Positions 1-30,350 of a stretch of 35,848 bases of DNA are shown piece by piece. The stretch's first letter is position 1, and each line of letters begins with the position of its first letter. The stretch spans positions 1-35,848 of IMG/VR virus record IMGVR_UViG_3300049144_000147. One strand, written 5' to 3'. The notes under the pieces were generated by a model that did not search any database, was not told the DNA's origin, and saw nothing but the letters and a program-made list of their open reading frames with translations. A program made the translations under genes and the position numbers. Source of the DNA: a virus. Lineage: Duplodnaviria; Caudoviricetes.

Positions 1-493
1 GGGTGAGACCCCAGATCTTTTCGGAGTCCTCCCGCGTGTCCGTGCCGTTCCCCAGCTTCGACCCGCGCGACAGTTCCTTGACGTCACCGCGCTTACGCGC
101 GTCCGCCCGACGCTGCCGACGCTCCCGCTCCCGCTTGACCAGTTCGGCCCGCTCATCTTCCGACGGGCCGGTAACCGGTTCACCTTCGACCCGGAACGCG
201 ACCAACTGTCCGGCCGATTCCGGGGCAGAGTTCTCCCGCACTTCCGCAGCCGCGTTCAACAGTTCGCGGTGAATCCGGATGCACGACTTGCAGAACTTTT
301 CGCCCGTCGGATTGGTCGACGTTTCGACGTCACGGGAGTTGCCCACGGTTCGCCCGCAAAGCGCACCCATGTCGTACGAACCGAGCATGACCGGAGTTGC
401 CGTCAAAACGTGCCACGCGTTAGAGCCCTTGCGCACACTTACGGCCGTGCCGTTTTCGCGTTCGATGTTTTCCAGCGTGAGCGACGTTGCCAT
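1..493 (-). CDS. Hypothetical protein, 3' end runs off the window (MATSLTLENIERENGTAVSVRKG...), H-C-CxxC putative Zn site
   Basis: Not in the ORF track because it has no stop in the window. ATG at 493 with RBS GAAAGGGG; frame stays open to base 1; WH..LCG..FCKSC motif. Confidence 0.8.
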   Translation of the reverse strand, partial: MATSLTLENIERENGTAVSVRKGSNAWHVLTATPVMLGSYDMGALCGRTVGNSRDVETSTNPTGEKFCKSCIRIHRELLNAAAEVRENSAPESAGQLVAFRVEGEPVTGPSEDERAELVKRERERRQRRADARKRGDVKELSRGSKLGNGTDTREDSEKIWGLT

Positions 494-547
494 TTCTTCC
501 CCTTTCGCGCGGTGCGCCTTTACGCACCGTCCGTCCGAATCGAACCG

Positions 548-721
548 TTACCGCTTGACGTACCGAACGTCACGGCCGAATGCGAGCGCTTCAACCCATG
601 CGACGGTTTGGGCATACGAACCCTTCCCGTCCGTCCGGAACACTCGCCGACCGTTGCGGAATTCGACGGTCCCGTTTTCCCGGACCGTGACCGTTCCGCC
701 ATTCGCGAGACTGACAACCAT
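548..721 (-). CDS. Hypothetical protein, 57 aa (MVVSLANGGTVTVRENG...)
   Basis: ATG at 721 with the same GAAAGGGG RBS as the downstream gene. Confidence 0.75.
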   Translation of the reverse strand: MVVSLANGGTVTVRENGTVEFRNGRRVFRTDGKGSYAQTVAWVEALAFGRDVRYVKR

Positions 722-759
722 CCCGCATCCCCTTTCCGAAACCCGCATGACACGGGGCC

Positions 760-1640
760 GAATAGGCGCACTACGCCCGTAACAAATGGCACGGCTCTAG
801 ACCGATGTTTGCCGGACACGTATCGCCTATCAGCCTCACATCACGTGAGTAACAAGCGACCCCGGGGCGAACCGTGTGACTGTCTGTCCGCGCGTTTCCG
901 AAGAAACGACCGTCCGCGCGTCACTTAGCAGCGCTCACCCCGGGGGCAAAGCAACCGGCCCCCTTTGCAGGGGGCCGGACACGGGCCGCTAACGCGTTAC
1001 CCATGTGTCGCCGGGCGCAGGCTCTCACCCCTGCGTGATCCGGCCGGACCGTACGACCACCGCCCCCACGTACGCCCACATGGGAAGGGTCGCGATAATC
1101 GAGTGTCGTCCTCACACTCGCGCATCGGTTACCGGTAGGGGGCAATTCGATTTCGTCGCGCCCGCACCAATCGCCACGGTTCAACTCACTCCCGCATTTC
1201 CCACGTGTGCAGCTAGGTTCATCCGGATGTGCAGCGCGTCTTAATCCACGCTTCACGTTCACCTAGCGAGTGACAGGTACTCCGCGAAAGGTCACCGGGC
1301 AGTGCGGGGGTTATCGCTCATCTGAACGCAACTCCGCTCTACCGGCCGCGTCTATTCAAGGCTGACGCTTTTTCAATCGGTCGCATACGCAACCCCCAAG
1401 CCCTTTCCGCTTCCCCCGCGTCTCACGACGTGTTCGGGTTGGCATGTAGTTGTCTGGGAATGCCACACCGGATACGACCGATGCAACCGGCCGTAACTCC
1501 CGTGCCCCCACATTGCCCACAACCACCGTCGCCCGTTTCCGGTGCGGTGTCCGTGTGCGGCGTGGCGCCTATTCCACGGGTCGCCCCGGGTTAGAACCGG
1601 GTGGCGCCCCCCGTGTTGGCGGGGCGTCGTGGCGACACCC
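760..1640 (-). ncRNA. Candidate large structured non-coding RNA or very long 5' leader (~0.9 kb)
   Basis: No credible CDS. Many nested helices; minus-strand C(UUCG)G, GCAA, GAGA and GUGA tetraloops; promoter-like element just upstream. Confidence 0.6.
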
Positions 1641-1643
1641 AGA

Positions 1644-1672
1644 ACATTGCCAGAGATGGCTGCCATTACGAA
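1644..1672 (-). promoter_or_regulatory. Putative leftward promoter TTCGTA-N17-CAATGT (extended TGn)
   Basis: Spacing fits a sigma70/HrdB-type promoter; the start would fall at ~1636-1640, at the first helix of the structured region. Confidence 0.4.
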
Positions 1673-1713
1673 TGTGAACGATCGAGCAAAGAAGCTCCCA
1701 GACTTCAAAAGCC

Positions 1714-2479
1714 CAGGTCAGAGCGGTGGTTGAAATCTGTACGACACAGAGTCAGTCTCACGAGGTAACACCGGATCATGCCTCTGACCTGCGAAGATGA
1801 GAAGTTATGTCACGAACGGATAACGACCGCTCGTAACTCTTGGACCTGCGACGATGCGGGAGACTTTCTTGTTTGTGCAGGTCAGAGGGGGTCCCAGAAT
1901 CCAGGAACTGAGCAGGGAAACGGACATTACGTGACAGACAAGCGTCTATGTTTGCGGCTGCTGGGGGGTCGGCAAAGTTCGTGAGCGCTACACATACCAC
2001 TGAGAATGTGAGCCAGGTCACACGACAGAACATGTGATAGGTGAGCGAAACGGACATGGTCGGGGAGGGTTCCGCGCGCGACAAAGGGAGTCGTCCCGCT
2101 CTTCAAAAACAGTGTCTGACCAGGAACAACAACAAGTAGATACGCGTATGTCCGGTTTAGTAGTTTTGTGTGTGTCTAGGTAGGAAAGATCGAGAGAGTG
2201 GATTAAAGCCCTTTAGTTACGCATGGGATGTGATCAGCCAGTATTTCTCTCGCTCGAAACCTGTACCGGAGACGACGAAAGCGCAGGTCAAAGGGCATGT
2301 CCCGAATGTCGGAATCAGCGCTGATCATGCCTCTGAGCTGCGGGAATGCGACGTGAGGGCATAGGCGCAGCGAAAGACTTGTGAGACAAACTGTCAGCAA
2401 CGACCGGATTGCAAACATCGCAGGTCAGAGGGGGTGCGGCATATGCCAAGAGGCATGATGATCATGCGTCTGACCTGGG
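1714..2479. repeat. Cluster of ~10 (CG)CAGGTCAGAG / CTCTGACCTG(CG) motifs in both orientations
   Basis: Copies at 1714, 1782, 1843, 1877, 2014, 2115, 2282, 2331, 2419, 2469; near-identical 20-mers at 1774-1793, 2323-2342, 2460-2479. Confidence 0.75.
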
Positions 2480-2869: not shown

Positions 2870-3430
2870 GTGAGGGAATGCGCGCGCCATGCGCTTAGAC
2901 AGGAATGCAAGGGAACGGGGCGCAGCAAAAGGCATGACATGCGGGGTGCGCCATTCTCGGATATCTCGATTCCTGGTTTTCGATTCTCGTTTCTTTCATT
3001 CCTTGTCATCCAACATGCCTAGTCAGGAAGGGAAAGACATTGAATGGAAGGCAAGGGGGAGGCAGGAAAGAAAAGAACGAAACGGCAGATCAGATACGGG
3101 ATATGTGTCTCACGTTCTTACGCCTAAGCCACAAGGAAAGGCAGGGAAGAACAACAGAACAGAATGGAATGGAAGGCGGGGAATCGAGCGGGAATGGAAG
3201 GCATGCAATGCCTAGCTATATCCACACCAATGCATGCCATATGTACATGCCTATATCTCACGTTGATATGCAATGAATACACAAAGCAATGAGTGATGAA
3301 TAGGAAGGGAATGCAAGGCAGGAGGGAAGGGAAGCAAGCGGGAGAAAAAATTCGGGGGGAGGGGGGAGAAATTCTCGACGATAGTTGTCCTATGCAGAAA
3401 ACCAAATTCGGAATTGAATTCAAAAATGGG
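2870..3430 (+). other. Purine-skewed low-complexity tract (GGAATG/GCAAGG/GGAAGG) ending in a G6-A-G6 run and an AT-rich segment; possible genome end or packaging region
   Basis: Composition is directly visible; ORFs across it have non-protein-like translations. Confidence 0.4.
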
Positions 3431-3500
3431 GCCCGGGTTGAGGTCGCGTGTCCGTCTACGCGTGGGCCCCGTGGGCTCCGTCCACAGATACAATCGGAGC

Positions 3501-17228: not shown

Positions 17229-18017
17229 TTACACCTTGCGCCAGCTCGGCACCCAGGCGCCGTCTTCGGTCACCGCGTAGTCCCCGAAGAGGGCCGGTGC
17301 CTCCTTCTTCATCAGCTCCCCCACCTTGCCGAAGACGAGCCGGATCTCTTCCTCGGCACCCTCGGCCGTGCGGGACTCGATGACGTGTCGCAGGGTGCGT
17401 ACGTTGGCCGTCCAGACCAGACCGGTGGCCAGGCCCTCCGGGGCGAAGCGGCGCATGAACGACGTCTTGTGCTTCTTCTCCTTGAAGGGCACATCCTCGT
17501 CGTCGAGACCGAAGTGGTCGGCCATCCAGAGCTGGAACTTCTCCATCTCGACCAGCAGGCGTACCGCCCGGGTCATCAGCTCGCCGTCCTGCTGGGCCCA
17601 TTCGGGGAACCAGACCGGCAGGTCGTCGAGTCGCACGAAGCGCAGGGACTCCTGAGAGATCGCGGTGCCCGCGCGATGCCGGACCTGCTCGTGGGTCAGG
17701 ACCCGACTGACGTTGTGGAACACGAAGTTGAAGTTGAGGTGTTCCAGGACGGAGCCGTGGGCGCTGGAGAGGATGTTCCCCAAGTATTTGTCCTGGTCGG
17801 TCCGAATGCGGGTCACGTTCGGGTTCAGGCCCGGCTCCCAGCTCCGGTAGCAGTAACGCCCGGCGAACTCCGCGAGGTTCTGCGCGTCGTTGAGTTCGCC
17901 CCGGTCGAGCCGTTCGAGCCAGCTCTCGCCGCCAACCTCCTTGAGGTATTCCGCGACTTCGTCGTAGTCGACAGACGGGCGGCCTATGAGACGAACCTCG
18001 GGCTGTACGAAGTGCAT
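17229..18017 (-). CDS. thyX: Flavin-dependent thymidylate synthase
   Basis: AGRYCY, HGSVLEH and HEQVRHRAGTAISQESLRF (RHRx7-8S) motifs, plus N.R and AEEEIR. Confidence 0.95.
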   Translation of the reverse strand: MHFVQPEVRLIGRPSVDYDEVAEYLKEVGGESWLERLDRGELNDAQNLAEFAGRYCYRSWEPGLNPNVTRIRTDQDKYLGNILSSAHGSVLEHLNFNFVFHNVSRVLTHEQVRHRAGTAISQESLRFVRLDDLPVWFPEWAQQDGELMTRAVRLLVEMEKFQLWMADHFGLDDEDVPFKEKKHKTSFMRRFAPEGLATGLVWTANVRTLRHVIESRTAEGAEEEIRLVFGKVGELMKKEAPALFGDYAVTEDGAWVPSWRKV

Positions 18018-20992: not shown

Positions 20993-21247
20993 GTGTTCGA
21001 TATGCAGCGAGCCTGGTGCTTCGATCACGGGTTGCTTCACCACTTCGGCGAAGACGGCGAGTGGTGCACCGCAGCCTGGGTCCTCCTCTCCGGCGACACC
21101 GACGAGCAAGCCCTGAAGCAGAAGGAGCTGATCTGGGGATCGGCCCAGTTCTTCGACCAGCTCCCCCTCGATCGACAGGGCGGCCTGGTCGGCATGCTGA
21201 TGAAGCGCCAGGGCCAGACCGTCAAGGAGGCCATCGAAGCCTCATGA
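20993..21247 (+). CDS. Hypothetical protein
   Basis: ATGA-coupled to the recombinase. Confidence 0.7.
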   Translation: MFDMQRAWCFDHGLLHHFGEDGEWCTAAWVLLSGDTDEQALKQKELIWGSAQFFDQLPLDRQGGLVGMLMKRQGQTVKEAIEAS

Positions 21248-22347
21248 ACCTCCTCTCAACTCCCCCTAGGGCGGAGCTGATTCAGGGAGGCACGACCGCA
21301 GAAGACGCCTTCACCTGGCTCCGCGACACCCTAGGAACCGTCGCCCCTCGGGATCCGGTGACCAGGCGGCTCGGGACTCGGCGCCATCGCCTCGACCTGC
21401 TGACCGAGCTGTGCGAGCGGGAGACCTTCCTTCTTGTCACCTCCTGGCTTGGTTCGGAAGCTGTGCGCGCCGTCCAGTCGAAGCGGGACTACGCCGACGA
21501 CATCAGAATGTGGGCCGGAGTTGCCTGGGAACTGGGCGGTCACGAGCGGTTTTTCCTGGGGTGCATTTCCCCGGAAATGATCGAGACATGGACCAAGGCG
21601 CAGAAGGCTCGGAACGCGAAGCCACGCACCATCAACCGACGCCTGTCCGCGCTGACGTCGTTCACGAGCTTCGCCGCCTGGAAGCTCAAGGACACCTCGA
21701 TCGTTTCTCCGGTGAGCAAGTACGACCGTCCCTACGTCGACCCGAACGACGAGGCGACAGCTACGCCCATCCTGGAGAAGAACGAGTTCGAGGACGTGAT
21801 GCGGGCGACCGAGACGGTCCAGCAGGCCGTCACCGTGGCTCTCATCTACACCCTGGCGGGACGCGTCAGCGAGTGCTGCAAAGCCCAGATCTCCGCCCTG
21901 ATCACAGTCGATGGCAAGAAGAGACTGGACCTGCTCCGTAAGCGTTCCAAGGAGCGAGGCTGGCCCATCCCCGACACCCTCTGGGGTCTGCTCGAAGTGG
22001 CGATCGATGGTCGCACTGAAGGCGCCATCCTCCTGGACGACCAGGGTCAGCCGATGGACCGCCACGCGGTGGACCGGATGCTCACAAGGATCGGAAAAAG
22101 AGCGGGCGTACTGCTAGGCCGCGATCTCACTCCTCACGTCCTGCGGGCCAGCCGCCTGACCCACATGCATGACGAGGGTGCACCACTGGAGGAAATCCAG
22201 GAGTACGCCGATCATGCCTCGATCCTGACGACCCAGCGATACGTTCGGATGCGGCAGATCGGCGAACGCAGGGCCCGGCACGCTCAGTCGGCCGCCCAGG
22301 TCTACAGCGATCTCATCACGCGATTCACCGACAAAGCCACCGTTTGA
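21244..22347 (+). CDS. Tyrosine recombinase (XerC/D-like resolvase or integrase)
   Basis: Catalytic R (AGRVSE), K, HVLR, H (ADHAS), Y (TTQRY); N-terminal PRTINRRLSALTSF core-binding domain; RBS AAGGAGG. Confidence 0.93.
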   Translation: MNLLSTPPRAELIQGGTTAEDAFTWLRDTLGTVAPRDPVTRRLGTRRHRLDLLTELCERETFLLVTSWLGSEAVRAVQSKRDYADDIRMWAGVAWELGGHERFFLGCISPEMIETWTKAQKARNAKPRTINRRLSALTSFTSFAAWKLKDTSIVSPVSKYDRPYVDPNDEATATPILEKNEFEDVMRATETVQQAVTVALIYTLAGRVSECCKAQISALITVDGKKRLDLLRKRSKERGWPIPDTLWGLLEVAIDGRTEGAILLDDQGQPMDRHAVDRMLTRIGKRAGVLLGRDLTPHVLRASRLTHMHDEGAPLEEIQEYADHASILTTQRYVRMRQIGERRARHAQSAAQVYSDLITRFTDKATV

Positions 22348-22448: not shown

Positions 22449-22685
22449 CTGCCCCGTGAGCAGTTCTTCGTGCATCCCCCTCGGGCATGTGCAGCCGTCG
22501 GTCGGGGACCAGGACGGGCAGACGCTGGCGACTCCGGCGACGTGCTGACACGGCTCGTTCCAGAACGTCGTCTCGCAGCCGCACCGATCGTCGTTGTGCC
22601 AACGGGATACAGGTTGACGGCAGAGTTCGCAGACGAGGTACGGGTTGGCGAAGGAAACGTAGACGTGGGTCCGAGTGAAGGTCAT
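22443..22685 (-). CDS. Cys-rich small protein
   Basis: CxxC, CGC, PCxH, CTC motifs; divergent from the protease. Confidence 0.75.
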   Translation of the reverse strand: MTFTRTHVYVSFANPYLVCELCRQPVSRWHNDDRCGCETTFWNEPCQHVAGVASVCPSWSPTDGCTCPRGMHEELLTGQK

Positions 22686-22722
22686 AGGCTCAGGATCGCC
22701 CAGGCTGCGTATGCTTCGCGAC

Positions 22723-23619
22723 ATGATCTGCTCTTTCATTCCGCCTCACATCGCGAAGAAGGTCGCAGAGACCGACCACTCTTTCGCGTCCGGCATCCGG
22801 GTGGACACGAAGCTCCGCGCAGCGCGCGAAGAGACGGCGATGATTGCCGGTCCGATCACCGTCTACACCGCAGGCAACAGGACAGCCGTTCCGGGAAGAC
22901 TCGTCACGGAGGACGACGAGTGCGCAAACCGGGTGAAGGGGTACGCCTACCTCATATCCCAGGTACTCGGCGTGAACGAGTTCCCTGACGGCGTCGTGCA
23001 CTACGGGCAGGGGTACGCCAACGCGTTCTTCAACGGCAACTACCTGGTCTTCGGGGAGGGGGACGGGGAGGTGTTCGGCGACTTCACCAAGTCGCTGGAC
23101 ATCATGGCTCACGAGTTCGGCCACGCACTCGTCTCGCTGGGGCCGGGTCTGCTGTACCAGGGTGAGTCCGGCGCGATGAACGAACATCTCGCAGACGTCT
23201 TCGGCATCAGCGTCCAGCAGTGGGCCGCGCAGGACCAAGAGGACTGGCGTGTTGGCGAGGAAATCATGCTCGACGGCGTCTCGGCCGTGCGGGACATGCT
23301 CTACCCGGGCCAGGCGTACGACTCTCCGATCCTCGGCCGGGATCCGCAGCCGGGCCACATGGACCAGTTCCAAAAGATCAGGGGAGACAACGGCGGCGTC
23401 CACATCAACTCCGGCATCCCCAACCGGGCCTTTGCCCTGCTGTGCGAGAAGACCGGAGAGCCGAGCTGGGGAAGGCCGCTCGCCATGTGGCGCCGGGCCA
23501 TGCAGGATCTCGGTCCGCGCTCGGGGTTCCGGGATCTGGCGGCGGCCACGTGGCGGCACTCGGGCGGTCTGAACCCTGTCGTGCGCGAGGCGTGGGCCGA
23601 GGTCGGCATCTCCGTCTGA
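22723..23619 (+). CDS. M4 family (thermolysin/protealysin-like) zinc metalloprotease
   Basis: NAFF, HEFGH (HExxH), GAMNEHLADVFG, DNGGVHINSGIPN; short IPPH propeptide typical of protealysin-like enzymes. Confidence 0.93.
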   Translation: MICSFIPPHIAKKVAETDHSFASGIRVDTKLRAAREETAMIAGPITVYTAGNRTAVPGRLVTEDDECANRVKGYAYLISQVLGVNEFPDGVVHYGQGYANAFFNGNYLVFGEGDGEVFGDFTKSLDIMAHEFGHALVSLGPGLLYQGESGAMNEHLADVFGISVQQWAAQDQEDWRVGEEIMLDGVSAVRDMLYPGQAYDSPILGRDPQPGHMDQFQKIRGDNGGVHINSGIPNRAFALLCEKTGEPSWGRPLAMWRRAMQDLGPRSGFRDLAAATWRHSGGLNPVVREAWAEVGISV

Positions 23620-25112: not shown

Positions 25113-25186
25113 TAACGGTCCATCCTGGGCGGTTCTTTTGGTTCGCCAGTCTCTCCCATTTGGGTGACGTCCGGTACGCTCTTTGC

Positions 25187-25747
25187 GTGACGACGATCGG
25201 CGACATCATCTACGAAGAGCTGCCCGCTTTCATGAGACGTACGGGCAAGGAAAAATTGCGCGTGCTGGAGGTCGGAGTTCTGCGGAACATCGACGCCGAG
25301 CACCTGGAAGGTGACGGTCATTCCACGATGGCCTTCACCCGCCTTCTCCATCAGCACCCGGGCAGTGAGTACGTCGGGATCGACCTCGACCCAAGCCACG
25401 CGCAGGCGGCCGTCGACTCCGAAGGGCTGGGCGGTTTCTGCACCTTCCATGCGGGCGACTCTGTGGAAACGATGTGGAGCCTCGCACTCGCCGGGGAGAA
25501 GTTCGACGTCATCTATCTGGACGCCGACAACTCCGGTTCGGCGACCATGCGGGAATACCTGCTGGCCGTCGACCTGGTGGCGCACCCGGGCCTGATCATG
25601 GGCGACGACATGAACACCGACCACCCCGAGGTGCGCAAGGGGCGAGTCCTCATTCCGTACCTGCGGGAAGAGGGTGCCACCTTCAAGCTGCGCCAGCGTC
25701 ACACGCCGTGGGACACCCGGGACATCCTCGTCCAGGAGATCGTGTGA
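25187..25747 (+). CDS. Class I SAM-dependent methyltransferase (Methyltransf_24-like)
   Basis: VLEVG..G.ST, YVGID, GDS, FDVIYLDA, G.IMGDD motifs; TACGCT 6 nt before the GTG. Confidence 0.85.
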   Translation: MTTIGDIIYEELPAFMRRTGKEKLRVLEVGVLRNIDAEHLEGDGHSTMAFTRLLHQHPGSEYVGIDLDPSHAQAAVDSEGLGGFCTFHAGDSVETMWSLALAGEKFDVIYLDADNSGSATMREYLLAVDLVAHPGLIMGDDMNTDHPEVRKGRVLIPYLREEGATFKLRQRHTPWDTRDILVQEIV

Positions 25748-27537: not shown

Positions 27538-27669
27538 GTTTTCAAGAGTGGCACAGAGTGCGCGGAAATGAAAGTTGGATAGTAGCCACGAAGTTCACGA
27601 CCCCTAGCACTCCTGACGCCAGACCCACATCGGGGGCACAGGTTCCCCATTAAATGCTTGCAACACGCC

Positions 27670-27920
27670 ATCTATCTTCTTACCCCGCGAAGGTAAGAGA
27701 TCACTTCAGACTCTGCCGGATTGGCTCAAACGGGGTACATGTTGCGACTCATCTGACGTACTTGACACGGGCGTTGGCACACCAGTCCAGGCGGGGTCAG
27801 CCGAACCCCCATGAGGAAAGGCCCGGCGGCATATGCGCGCGCGGGCCTTCTCTGACGATTCCTCAGCCCCTGGAAGTGGAGACCGGTCCGCCCTGTGCCG
27901 ACCGGGATGGGGCTCCATCA
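27670..27920 (+). ncRNA. Candidate structured RNA or leader upstream of the terminase
   Basis: Nested helices CCAGG/CCTGG, TGAGGAA/TTCCTCA, AAGGCCCG/CGGGCCTT, TGGAG/CTCCA, CCGGTC/GACCGG, TCTTACC/GGTAAGA. Confidence 0.35.
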
Positions 27921-27980
27921 GGTTACCGAAAACCCACCGCCATAAGGAATGCTGTACCTGTCGTACGAGAAAGGGGCGGC

Positions 27981-30350
27981 ATGTCCTCACAGGAAGAGCG
28001 GATCGCCACGGATGCCGAAGCCTACTTCAGGAATCAGGCACGACAGGCGGGCTGGGTAAACGATCCTGCGGGCTGGGCCAAGGACGTTCTGGGGGTTCAC
28101 CTTTGGAGTAAGCAGCGCGAGATCTGCGACTCGCTCATCCACAACAAGCGGACCGTGGTGGCCTCGTGTCACGGCACCGGGAAGGCGCTTGGCCTCGACG
28201 AACTCGTGCACACCCCCGACGGACCTGTGCCCATGGGCGAGATACGCGAGGGCATGACGGTGCTCGGTGCCGACGGCAAGCCGGTGACGGTGGTGGCCAC
28301 GACCGGAAAGCACACGGCCGAGTCGTACCGAGTGCGCCTGGAACGTGGTGGGATGGTCGAGGAAATCGTCGCATCTGGCGACCACGTCTGGCCGGTTCTT
28401 CCTCTTCAGGTTTTGGCGGAGATCCAGATCAAGTCCGACCGCGCAGGTGTGCCGGTGGAGACGGGTCTGTGGCATCACCGTGCGCAGAATCTGACGACGA
28501 AGGAGCTGGCCCGCCTGCAAGGGGTGGCTGTCATACCGGGGCAGGTTCCGCAGATCCTCCCTCGCGGAGTGGACTGGGATCCCGGAACCTCGGTGGACCC
28601 TTCGCTGCGAGAGCGGACCGCCCTCGATCCGTTCGGCCGGACTGCCCTGCTGTGGAAGACGCGCAGTGACGAGCCGGAGGAGATCGCATCTATCCGGGAT
28701 CGCATGCGCTCGATCGGCGTGCACACGATCTACCACCGCGAGCGGAAGTACGGAACGACGTTTCGGCATCTGGCTCTCATGGGGACTCACGCGCCTGATC
28801 TGCTTCCGGATCCCAACGTCCGGGCCATCGCGCTGTCGCACCTGCTGAGCAGGCAGGGGAGCTGGGGCGACGACGGCTGGAGAATCGTTTCGGTGAAGCC
28901 TATCGGGCCCCGGGAGGTGCAGTGCATCCAGGTCGATTCCCCTGATCACCTCTACCTCTGCGGCAAGAGCGGGATCCCGACTCACAACTCGATGATCGCC
29001 TCCGTTCTCGCCTGCTGGTGGGTGTCCACCAAGCCGCCCGGTCACGCCATCGTGGTGAGCACCGCACCGACATATGCCCAGGTCAACAAGATTCTCTGGG
29101 AGGAGATCCGCAAGCATCACTCCAACTCGCAGCGCGGCCAGTACCCCATGCCGGGCCGGGTGACGCAGGCGGACGAATGGAAGCTGGCCGACGGTCAGAT
29201 CGTCGGCTTCGGGCGGAAGCCAGCGAAGGGTGACCGGCACTCCTTCCATGGCATCCACAGGCGATACGTTCTGGTGCTGCTGGATGAGGCGTGCGGCATC
29301 CCCGAGGAGATCTGGACCGGTGTCGAGGCCATCACCACGAACGTCGGCTGCCGGATCCTGGCCATCGGAAACCCGGACGACCGCAACACCGAGTTCGGCA
29401 AGAATTTCCTGGAGCCACGCACCGCACACCTGTGGAACCGGATCTCGATCCCGGCGTCGACCACGCCGAACTTCACGGGTGAGCCGGTGCCCAAGCTCCT
29501 GAACGAAGTGCTCATCTCCCGGGACTGGGCTGAGGAGCGCCTGGCCGACTGGGGAGAGAAGGACCCTCGCTACATCTCGAAGATCGACGCCCGATTCCCC
29601 GAGCAGAGCCAGTCATCGCTGTTCGCCCCCTCACTCATCGCCGACGCAGTCGACGAACCCCCCACCCCCGCGAAGTACTCGATCCTGCGTCTCGGTGTGG
29701 ACGTCGCACGCTTCGGATCCGACAAGACAGTGGTCGCCTCCTACTCGGGCGTGACGGCACAGATCGAGGAGTCGTGGTCGGGAACCGACACGGTGTCCTC
29801 GGCGTACAAGGTGCTCGACATCGCCGAACGGCTCAAGGAGGAGCGCAAGGCGCCCTGGGTGGAAATCCGGGTGGACGGCGTCGGTCTGGGTGCGGGTGTC
29901 ATCGACACACTGAACGCGCGCGCAGCCCTGCTGCCGCAGCCCTGGTTCACGGTGTACGAGATGCATGGCTCGGCAGCCCCTCCGGCGGACGTCGGCGGCT
30001 CGGTGTACGGCTACTACAACGCGCGCGCCTACTGGTTCGACCAGCTCCGGCAGAAGATGCGGAACTCCTCGGTGAAGCTCATCGACCCGGATGAGTTGAT
30101 CTCCGACGACCTGAAGATGGTCTTCTACTCCGTCCGCAACGGCCGCCTGCTCATCGCCTCGAAGGAGGAGATGCGCAAGGAGTACGGTCGCTCGCCCGAC
30201 CTCGCCGATGCCGTCGCCTACGCCACGGCCCCTGTGGCGGACGGCCTCCAGCAGGGCGACATCGTCGCCGAGACGGCCGAGGAGGTGGCGGGCATGTACG
30301 GCGAGGATGCGTGGCTGATGGATCCGGAGACGGTGATCGCACCGTACTGA
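27981..30350 (+). CDS. terL: Terminase large subunit, intein-containing (789-aa precursor, ~521 aa after splicing)
   Basis: RBS GAAAGGGG; Walker A SCHGTGK|S, Walker B VLLDEA, GNP, nuclease LGVDVARFGSD and SPDLADA. Confidence 0.95.
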   Translation: MSSQEERIATDAEAYFRNQARQAGWVNDPAGWAKDVLGVHLWSKQREICDSLIHNKRTVVASCHGTGKALGLDELVHTPDGPVPMGEIREGMTVLGADGKPVTVVATTGKHTAESYRVRLERGGMVEEIVASGDHVWPVLPLQVLAEIQIKSDRAGVPVETGLWHHRAQNLTTKELARLQGVAVIPGQVPQILPRGVDWDPGTSVDPSLRERTALDPFGRTALLWKTRSDEPEEIASIRDRMRSIGVHTIYHRERKYGTTFRHLALMGTHAPDLLPDPNVRAIALSHLLSRQGSWGDDGWRIVSVKPIGPREVQCIQVDSPDHLYLCGKSGIPTHNSMIASVLACWWVSTKPPGHAIVVSTAPTYAQVNKILWEEIRKHHSNSQRGQYPMPGRVTQADEWKLADGQIVGFGRKPAKGDRHSFHGIHRRYVLVLLDEACGIPEEIWTGVEAITTNVGCRILAIGNPDDRNTEFGKNFLEPRTAHLWNRISIPASTTPNFTGEPVPKLLNEVLISRDWAEERLADWGEKDPRYISKIDARFPEQSQSSLFAPSLIADAVDEPPTPAKYSILRLGVDVARFGSDKTVVASYSGVTAQIEESWSGTDTVSSAYKVLDIAERLKEERKAPWVEIRVDGVGLGAGVIDTLNARAALLPQPWFTVYEMHGSAAPPADVGGSVYGYYNARAYWFDQLRQKMRNSSVKLIDPDELISDDLKMVFYSVRNGRLLIASKEEMRKEYGRSPDLADAVAYATAPVADGLQQGDIVAETAEEVAGMYGEDAWLMDPETVIAPY
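28185..28988 (+). mobile_element. Class 3-type intein (268 aa, Ala1), no intact homing endonuclease evident
   Basis: ALGLDELVHTPDG...ASGDHVW...VQCIQV...IPTHN/S; Trp-Cys-Thr signature. Confidence 0.9.

What the first reader, a model, noticed from the sequence alone, without database searches (positions are those of the whole stretch)
760..1640. Candidate novel ~0.9 kb structured phage RNA at the head of the leftward operon
Seen in the sequence: no protein-like ORF, but dense nested pairing. Helices include 893-908 (C-UUCG-G loop on the minus strand), 955-978 (perfect 10 bp, GCAA loop on minus), 1016-1035 (GAGA loop), 1000-1007/1077-1084, 1100-1120, long-range 1132-1138/1339-1345 enclosing 1186-1191/1268-1273 and 1212-1218/1261-1267, 1376-1383/1475-1482 (extended by a G-U pair only on minus), 1419-1430 (GUGA loop) and 1580-1585/1631-1636. 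A TTCGTA-N17-CAATGT promoter-like element would start transcription at the first helix. Established: UUCG and GNRA loops are hallmarks of functional RNAs, and phages carry large ncRNAs such as GOLLD and ROOL. Inference: this is a large ncRNA or giant leader/antitermination RNA co-transcribed with the 548-721 and 1-493 genes. I recognise no tRNA, tmRNA, RNase P or group I/II intron motifs, so it may be an undescribed class.
Basis: partly seen in the sequence, partly recalled or inferred. Interest (0 to 1): 0.88.

Follow-up and report, generated by a model that had tools for sequence, protein, structure and literature searches.

The report
Giant folded RNA in Streptomyces phages
A family of large Streptomyces phages keeps a gene-free kilobase ahead of the first gene beside the genome end, whose base pairs are preserved through many compensating changes and which matches no catalogued RNA family, so it is likely a new large phage RNA, predicted to be made early in infection and to help take over the host.

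Summary
The window is a fragment of a cluster BM-like Streptomyces phage (Satis relatives). Positions 722-1637 (minus) are the most divergent member (50-56% identity) of a 0.86-1.09 kb gene-free element. It sits between the terminal repeat and the first leftward gene in 17 of 17 full-length homologues. Three domains covary: 19/30, 11/15 and 11/21 pairs change on both sides, 0/500 shuffles each. G-U cells outnumber A-C 78 to 16. A model built without phage G001 finds it with all 30 pairs intact. A ~100-nt module with a loop-E-like internal loop is doubled in 7 of 17. There is no Rfam, tRNA or conserved-ORF match. Folding z-score alone does not discriminate, because neighbouring DNA scores as well. 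Expression is untested. The closest analogue is the abundant, toxic, partly essential Pleft RNA of mycobacteriophages L5/D29: same position, no detectable homology. Best guess: a stable early RNA acting as a protein-binding decoy or scaffold (0.4); antiterminator leader next (0.22). This scan found the family before on another genome (e1-5807703).

The parts
722..1637 (-). Large structured RNA element (predicted 5' end about 1637; runs to the start codon of the first leftward gene)
   Evidence: Homologous gene-free element at the same place in 17 of 17 full-length relatives; covariation
1644..1672 (-). Promoter-like element TTCGTA-N17-CAATGT with extended -10 TG; its spacer holds the palindrome ATGGCAGCCAT (1656-1666)
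   Evidence: invariant G.AATG....CCAT, TG and last T in 12 of 12 aligned; function inferred
1580..1636 (-). 5' domain: closing helix 1636-1631/1585-1580 and a hairpin with a 7-nt T-loop-like loop UUCUAAC (1596-1590)
   Evidence: T-loop-like hairpin with varying stems in 12 of 18; first hairpin nearly invariant, 1 of 15 pairs compensatory in 8 homologues, window not included
1524..1549 (-). Hairpin with GAAA loop; the same hairpin has GNRA or UUCG loops in relatives
   Evidence: read by eye
1131..1346 (-). Central domain closed by long-range helix 1346-1339/1138-1131
   Evidence: A 6-14 bp helix of varying sequence at the equivalent place in 17 of 17; beats shuffles at <=1/200 in 6 of 17, not in the window (29/200)
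1189..1290 (-). Core module: P1 (1290-1283/1196-1189), loop-E-like internal loop (GAGUA 1282-1278 / GGAAA 1201-1197), P2, P3 (1267-1261/1218-1212), UGAA bulge, apical hairpin; two tandem copies in 7 of 17 relatives
   Evidence: the motif name is recalled, not from a call
1010..1127 (-). Domain E: hairpin with G-R-D-D-ACG loop (1113-1107), bulged stem, third stem
   Evidence: 19 of 30 pairs compensatory, 0/500 shuffles; loop hairpin in 17 of 17
861..1006 (-). Variable hairpins: 1006-979, GCAA hairpin 978-955, long hairpin 944-861 capped by C-UUCG-G (908-893)
   Evidence: the automatic alignment gave only 1 of 6 compensatory pairs for the first hairpin
761..849 (-). 3' domain G: long irregular hairpin closed by 831-824/768-761; absent from Satis and G001
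   Evidence: 11 of 21 pairs compensatory, 0/500 shuffles
729..737 (-). Ribosome-binding site GGAAAGGGG
   Evidence: Sequence; role inferred
548..721 (-). First leftward gene, 57 aa, homologue of Satis gp337 (68% identity), unknown function
2..493 (-). Second leftward gene, cut by the window end, no family
1714..2477 (.). Five CTGACCTG boxes in both orientations upstream of the promoter, likely DNA protein-binding sites, not part of the RNA
   Evidence: 5 of 6 window copies lie here, 0/100 shuffles reach 6; pairs invariant, covariation term +0.45
3383..3456 (.). Edge of the direct terminal repeat; physical right genome end near 3438 by analogy with Satis
   Evidence: repeat of 1,049 bp in Satis (PMC6687918)

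Best explanation
This is a conserved, multi-domain folded element ahead of the first right-arm gene; it is likely transcribed from the promoter beside the terminal repeat, likely accumulates as a stable free RNA early in infection, and likely works as a decoy or scaffold that binds host gene-expression proteins through its repeated loop-E-like module. Shown: position, absence of a conserved protein frame, conserved pairing, strand, module duplication. Inferred: transcription, a 5' end near 1637, release from the downstream mRNA by termination or cutting near 740-760, abundance, and any partner. The accumulation and host effect rest on analogy with the Pleft RNA of L5/D29.
For: Covariation in three domains. 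G-U 78 versus A-C 16 cells in two alignments. Held-out phage G001 found at 41.9 bits, E 1.2e-9, with no broken pair. Unconstrained folding gives the full module in 12 of 19 copies and its closing helix in 15 of 19, read by eye. The module is doubled in 7 of 17 and domain G is lost in two, which fits a modular binding RNA better than one catalytic core. Cluster A mycobacteriophages carry a ~500-nt non-coding RNA between Pleft and the first right-arm gene; it is the most abundant transcript, stable, processed, toxic to the host, partly needed for lytic growth, and has no evident canonical terminator (PMC5712189, passages).
Against: No expression data exist here. No terminator with a U tail separates the element from the first gene; the scan's two internal terminator-like sites (978-955, 874-857) are at chance level, 5 found versus 3.9 expected. 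Position is fixed ahead of the operon in 17 of 17, as a cis element would be. No homology to the L5 RNA was found. No partner protein was identified. Folding z-score is matched by neighbouring non-coding DNA. Shuffle controls ignore relatedness, and many homologues are 90-99% identical to one another.
Confidence: 0.4

Rival explanations
1. A cis-acting antiterminator or read-through leader: the nascent RNA modifies host RNA polymerase so that it passes the hairpins between the right-arm genes, as put RNA of phage HK022 or EAR RNA of Bacillus do (both recalled).
For: Fixed place and strand directly behind the promoter in 17 of 17. 10 of 13 downstream intergenic gaps in Satis, JustBecause and Frankenweenie fold at -19.7 kcal/mol or better. 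Single copy in Satis.
Against: About ten times larger than put or EAR (recalled sizes). No Rfam match. The intergenic hairpins lack U tails and may be processing or stabilising sites. Tolerates module duplication and domain loss.
Confidence: 0.22
2. A passive 5' stabiliser or translation-control leader of the first early mRNA.
For: Runs up to the ribosome-binding site. In JustBecause-type phages the last hairpin hides a GGAGG about 20 nt before the start codon.
Against: One or two hairpins would do; conserved internal loops, long-range helices and a doubled module are unexplained. The GGAGG-hiding hairpin is not kept in the window or L012. No conserved 5'-3' switch was found.
Confidence: 0.13
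3. A self-assembling RNA like GOLLD or ROOL, forming a homo-oligomeric cage.
For: Similar size, phage-encoded, GNRA loops and T-loop-like loops that could make contacts (PMC12286853 passages).
Against: No Rfam match. No tRNA gene in the window or eight loci, whereas GOLLD and ROOL often lie near tRNA islands. I found no covarying pseudoknot or kissing loop, by eye only.
Confidence: 0.1
4. A replication primer or RNA-based origin, like ColE1 RNA II or the ori RNAs of non-RepA cluster A prophages.
For: Lies next to the terminal repeat and repeated DNA boxes. RNA-based origins exist in actinophages (PMC7157519, passages).
Against: The repeated boxes are behind the promoter, not at the RNA's 3' end, which runs into a gene. 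The known ori RNAs lie beside parABS in temperate phages; Frankenweenie is reported unlikely to be temperate (PMC10652959).
Confidence: 0.08
5. A DNA-level signal (injection stop, packaging) or selectively neutral hairpin-rich spacer.
For: Near the genome end; neighbouring DNA folds as well as it does.
Against: G-U excess, strand-specific GNRA/UNCG loops (62 sense versus 15 antisense over 15 elements; upstream control 32 versus 28) and compensatory changes are absent from the neighbouring DNA.
Confidence: 0.07

Closest known systems
Pleft non-coding RNA of cluster A mycobacteriophages L5, D29, StarStuff (PMC5712189)
   Same: Actinophage; gene-free stretch between the leftward promoter at the right genome end and the first right-arm gene; divergent in sequence; no canonical terminator; folds better than shuffles (z -4.71).
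   Different: About 500 nt versus 860-1090 nt; contains repressor stoperator sites; no match to either covariance model inside the transcribed region. Its expression is measured, this one's is not.
GOLLD and ROOL RNAs (PMC12286853)
   Same: Large, ornate, phage-encoded, function unknown.
   Different: No Rfam match; not beside tRNA genes; fused to the head of an operon; no pseudoknots shown; oligomerisation untested.
put RNA (HK022) and EAR RNA, RNA-based antiterminators (recalled)
   Same: Structured RNA just behind an early promoter of a long operon.
   Different: Far larger; no Rfam match; no read-through test.
RNA-based origins of non-RepA cluster A prophages (PMC7157519)
   Same: Non-coding RNA in an actinophage.
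   Different: Those lie beside parABS in the genome centre and serve plasmid-like lysogeny.

Membership tests
Any Rfam 15 family (GOLLD, ROOL, OLE, introns, RNase P, riboswitches, ribozymes) | Covariance-model score at the gathering threshold | tested here: not met
   0 hits in the window; only an 18-bit chance hit at E 2.2; 0 hits at E<=1 in eight loci
GOLLD/ROOL | Often near tRNA islands | tested here: not met
   ARAGORN 0 genes in the window and 8 of 8 loci
GOLLD/ROOL | Multiple covarying pseudoknots or kissing loops | tested here: inconclusive
   Looked by eye only; 5'-3' duplex not above shuffles (5-83 of 100)
GOLLD/ROOL | RNA-only homo-oligomer | not testable with these tools
   Needs cryo-EM or mass photometry
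tRNA/tmRNA | Cloverleaf or tag frame | tested here: not met
Cluster A Pleft RNA | Gene-free stretch between leftward end promoter and first right-arm gene | tested here: met
Cluster A Pleft RNA | Sequence or structure homology | tested here: not met
   Models R1 and R2 give no hit inside the L5 transcribed region; blastn of the element finds only 6 Streptomyces phages
Cluster A Pleft RNA | Very abundant, stable, processed, toxic transcript | not testable with these tools
   Needs infection RNA-seq and expression tests
RNA-based antiterminators (put, EAR) | Suppresses termination in cis | not testable with these tools
   Only context: intergenic hairpins
Protein-coding gene | Conserved reading frame | tested here: not met
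   No blastp match between frames of the window element and any homologue

The most novel reading that the evidence does not exclude
A new class of kilobase-size phage RNA, built from a repeatable loop-E module, that is the first product of infection and takes over host transcription or translation without protein. Together with the unrelated Pleft RNA of mycobacteriophages it would define a general actinophage strategy: a giant RNA at the head of the early operon.
Probability: 0.3. Interest if true: 0.9.

Novelty: new variant of a known kind. Interest (0 to 1): 0.66.

Why it matters
Very few bacterial or phage RNA classes approach 1 kb, and those known have yielded unexpected structures (PMC12286853). 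This one occurs in cultured phages (Satis, JustBecause) of the laboratory host S. lividans, so expression, deletion and structure can be tested at once. It also gives a second case for the open question of what the abundant Pleft RNA of L5/D29 does. The window's divergent copy shows which parts are the conserved core.

Tried and rejected
No RNA holder listed for window 500-1800. Folding z-score rejected as evidence. A conserved 5'-3' end pairing or switch was not supported: the window's duplex is matched by 9 of 100 shuffles, others by 5-83; the anchored version of the test failed to find its anchors. Homologue hunts: 7 of 7 viral hits real. 10 of 107 metagenome hits were confirmed by nhmmer, one duplicating L011 and five partial. 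3 of 9 hits were already known members. 0 of 10 confirmed. Of 4 hits, 3 were in family phages and 1 in a coding region. Of 4 hits, 1 was G001; L199 (read) is coding and L200 scores identically, L198 not read. Bacterial genomes: 0 hits and 20 hits with no full model match. Plasmids: one chance hit. G003 (capsid 71%) is only a tentative member: local alignment 12/100 shuffles, collinear words 2/500, R1 17.2 bits after pre-selection, z -2.03. No element was located in G002, G004, G005 or G006, all incomplete. RNAalifold on the MAFFT module alignment recovered only 4 pairs because rows are out of register; the 15 pairs counted were chosen by me from single-sequence folds, which biases that count. 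The 5' hairpin and the 1006-979 hairpin gave little covariation. Literature searches found no description of this RNA. In PMC10690425, 6 supplement files held no match and 3 could not be searched; its 29-151 nt candidates may include pieces of this RNA.

Full report
Source. The window is a 35.8 kb virus record, 19% complete. It encodes terminase, portal and major head protein. The start of the finding matches only six Streptomyces cluster BM phages by blastn, and the 57-aa ORF at 548-721 is 45-68% identical to the last gene of seven BM phages. Window 3383-3456 matches the edge of their terminal repeat (1,049 bp in Satis, PMC6687918, whole text). The finding therefore lies about 1.8 kb inside the right genome end, outside the repeat, between a promoter-like site and the first leftward gene. 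Satis, JustBecause, Kela and Frankenweenie have no annotation there.

Observation. GNRA/UNCG-capped stems number 5 on minus and 0 on plus (1/300 shuffles). No reading frame is conserved. Two listed helices (1186-1191/1268-1273 and 1000-1007/1077-1084) compete with pairings that homologues support.

Homologues. Pattern scans and a capsid-guided search gave 17 distinct full-length elements of 861-1091 nt, the window included. All lie on the same strand ahead of the same first gene. The window's copy is 50-56% identical to the 12 others in that comparison, several of which are 90-99% identical to each other, so the independent lineages number about six or seven. A more distant phage, G003 (capsid 71%), has an 800-nt gene-free leader at the same place with short motifs in the same order; I count it as tentative. 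Nothing was found in bacterial genomes or plasmids.

Structure. Domain E (1127-1010): RNAalifold on an unedited MAFFT alignment of 15 rows gives 30 pairs, 19 with changes on both sides, 95% of cells paired, 0/500 shuffles, and 34-46% paired when slid. A model built from these rows finds G001, which was not among them, at 41.9 bits with no broken pair. Domain G (849-761): 11 of 21 pairs compensatory in 12 rows, 0/500 (I dropped an outer 8-pair helix that RNAalifold proposed); Satis and G001 lack it. Core module (1290-1189): helix P1, an internal loop with GAGUA opposite GGAAA, helix P2, a second loop, helix P3, a UGAA bulge and an apical hairpin. AGUA opposite GAA is the loop E / bulged-G motif (recalled). 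11 of 15 pairs that I chose are compensatory in 18 rows, and unconstrained folding gives the whole module in 12 of 19 copies (by eye). Seven of 17 elements carry two tandem copies. A 6-14 bp helix of changing sequence closes the central domain in all 17, individually significant in 6. G-U cells outnumber A-C 47:7 and 31:9, which fixes the strand. As a control, the 250 nt upstream align as well but pair only through invariant inverted repeats, with a covariation term of +0.45 against -5.11 and -3.02. Weak spots: the 5' hairpin and the 1006-979 hairpin show 1 of 15 and 1 of 6 compensatory pairs, and the shuffle control ignores relatedness.

Comparison. Rfam and ARAGORN are empty for the window and eight loci. 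The best analogue is the Pleft RNA of cluster A mycobacteriophages: about 500 nt, between the leftward promoter and the first right-arm gene, the most abundant transcript, stable, processed, toxic, with one part that could not be deleted and no evident terminator (PMC5712189, passages; also 10.1101/2025.11.21.689395, passages). Neither model matches inside it, so it is an analogue and not a member. GOLLD and ROOL share size and phage origin but not context (PMC12286853, passages). RNA origins of cluster A prophages lie beside parABS (PMC7157519, passages). PMC10652959 was read in part 1 of 2. Nine searches found no paper on this RNA; three supplement files of PMC10690425 could not be searched.

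Mechanism. Shown: conserved RNA-type pairing, strand, place, modularity, no protein frame. Inferred: transcription from the 1672-1644 site, which is atypical, a stable free RNA by analogy with L5, and protein binding by the loop-E module. I put a decoy or scaffold role at 0.4, a read-through leader at 0.22 (10 of 13 downstream gaps hold strong hairpins), a passive leader at 0.13, a self-assembling cage at 0.1, an origin RNA at 0.08 and a DNA-level or neutral reading at 0.07.

Earlier finding. This scan reported the same family on another genome (e1-5807703, sharing 177 of 180 words with L006). That note is not independent support.

Verdict. A real, uncatalogued large structured RNA element of BM-like Streptomyces phages; function untested; interest 0.66.

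Noticed in passing
L187 927-835 minus (L5 record about 51,226-51,135): By eye, the 3' end of the L5 Pleft RNA looks tRNA-like: a 6-bp acceptor-like stem directly after a T-arm with a UUCGAUU loop. It ends at the mapped 3' boundary and its 5' strand lies in the deletion that could not be made (PMC5712189). ARAGORN and Rfam do not call it.
   Followed up: partly
window 1714-2477: Five CTGACCTG boxes in both orientations, invariant across ten phages without covariation; likely protein-binding DNA sites beside the terminal repeat.
   Followed up: partly
window 1656-1666: Palindrome ATGGCAGCCAT in the promoter spacer, identical in 11 of 12 aligned; possible regulator site. It does not recur as a genome-wide motif.
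   Followed up: partly
window 1574-1559 with 777-760: In the window alone the 5' and 3' ends can pair over about 15 bp in place of the domain G closing helix; not above shuffles (9/100).
   Followed up: yes
L179 1330-1470 (G001): Repeated GUCGAC-stem hairpins replace domain G and recur before the second gene.
   Followed up: no
L002 2693-6574, L003, L013, window 494-547: GC-rich hairpins without U tails followed by a purine-rich CGG(A/G)AAG-type sequence in most gaps between right-arm genes; terminators or RNase sites.
   Followed up: partly
L003 2697-2879: JustBecause carries an intact gp337 homologue that its GenBank record does not annotate.
   Followed up: yes
window 27654-30350: The terminase large subunit has an insertion of about 270 aa ending in His-Asn before Ser, likely an intein (by eye; Pfam found none).
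   Followed up: no
window 22675-23619, 21016-22347, 25160-25747, 17229-18017: Thermolysin-family peptidase, tyrosine recombinase, methyltransferase and thymidylate synthase genes.
   Followed up: no
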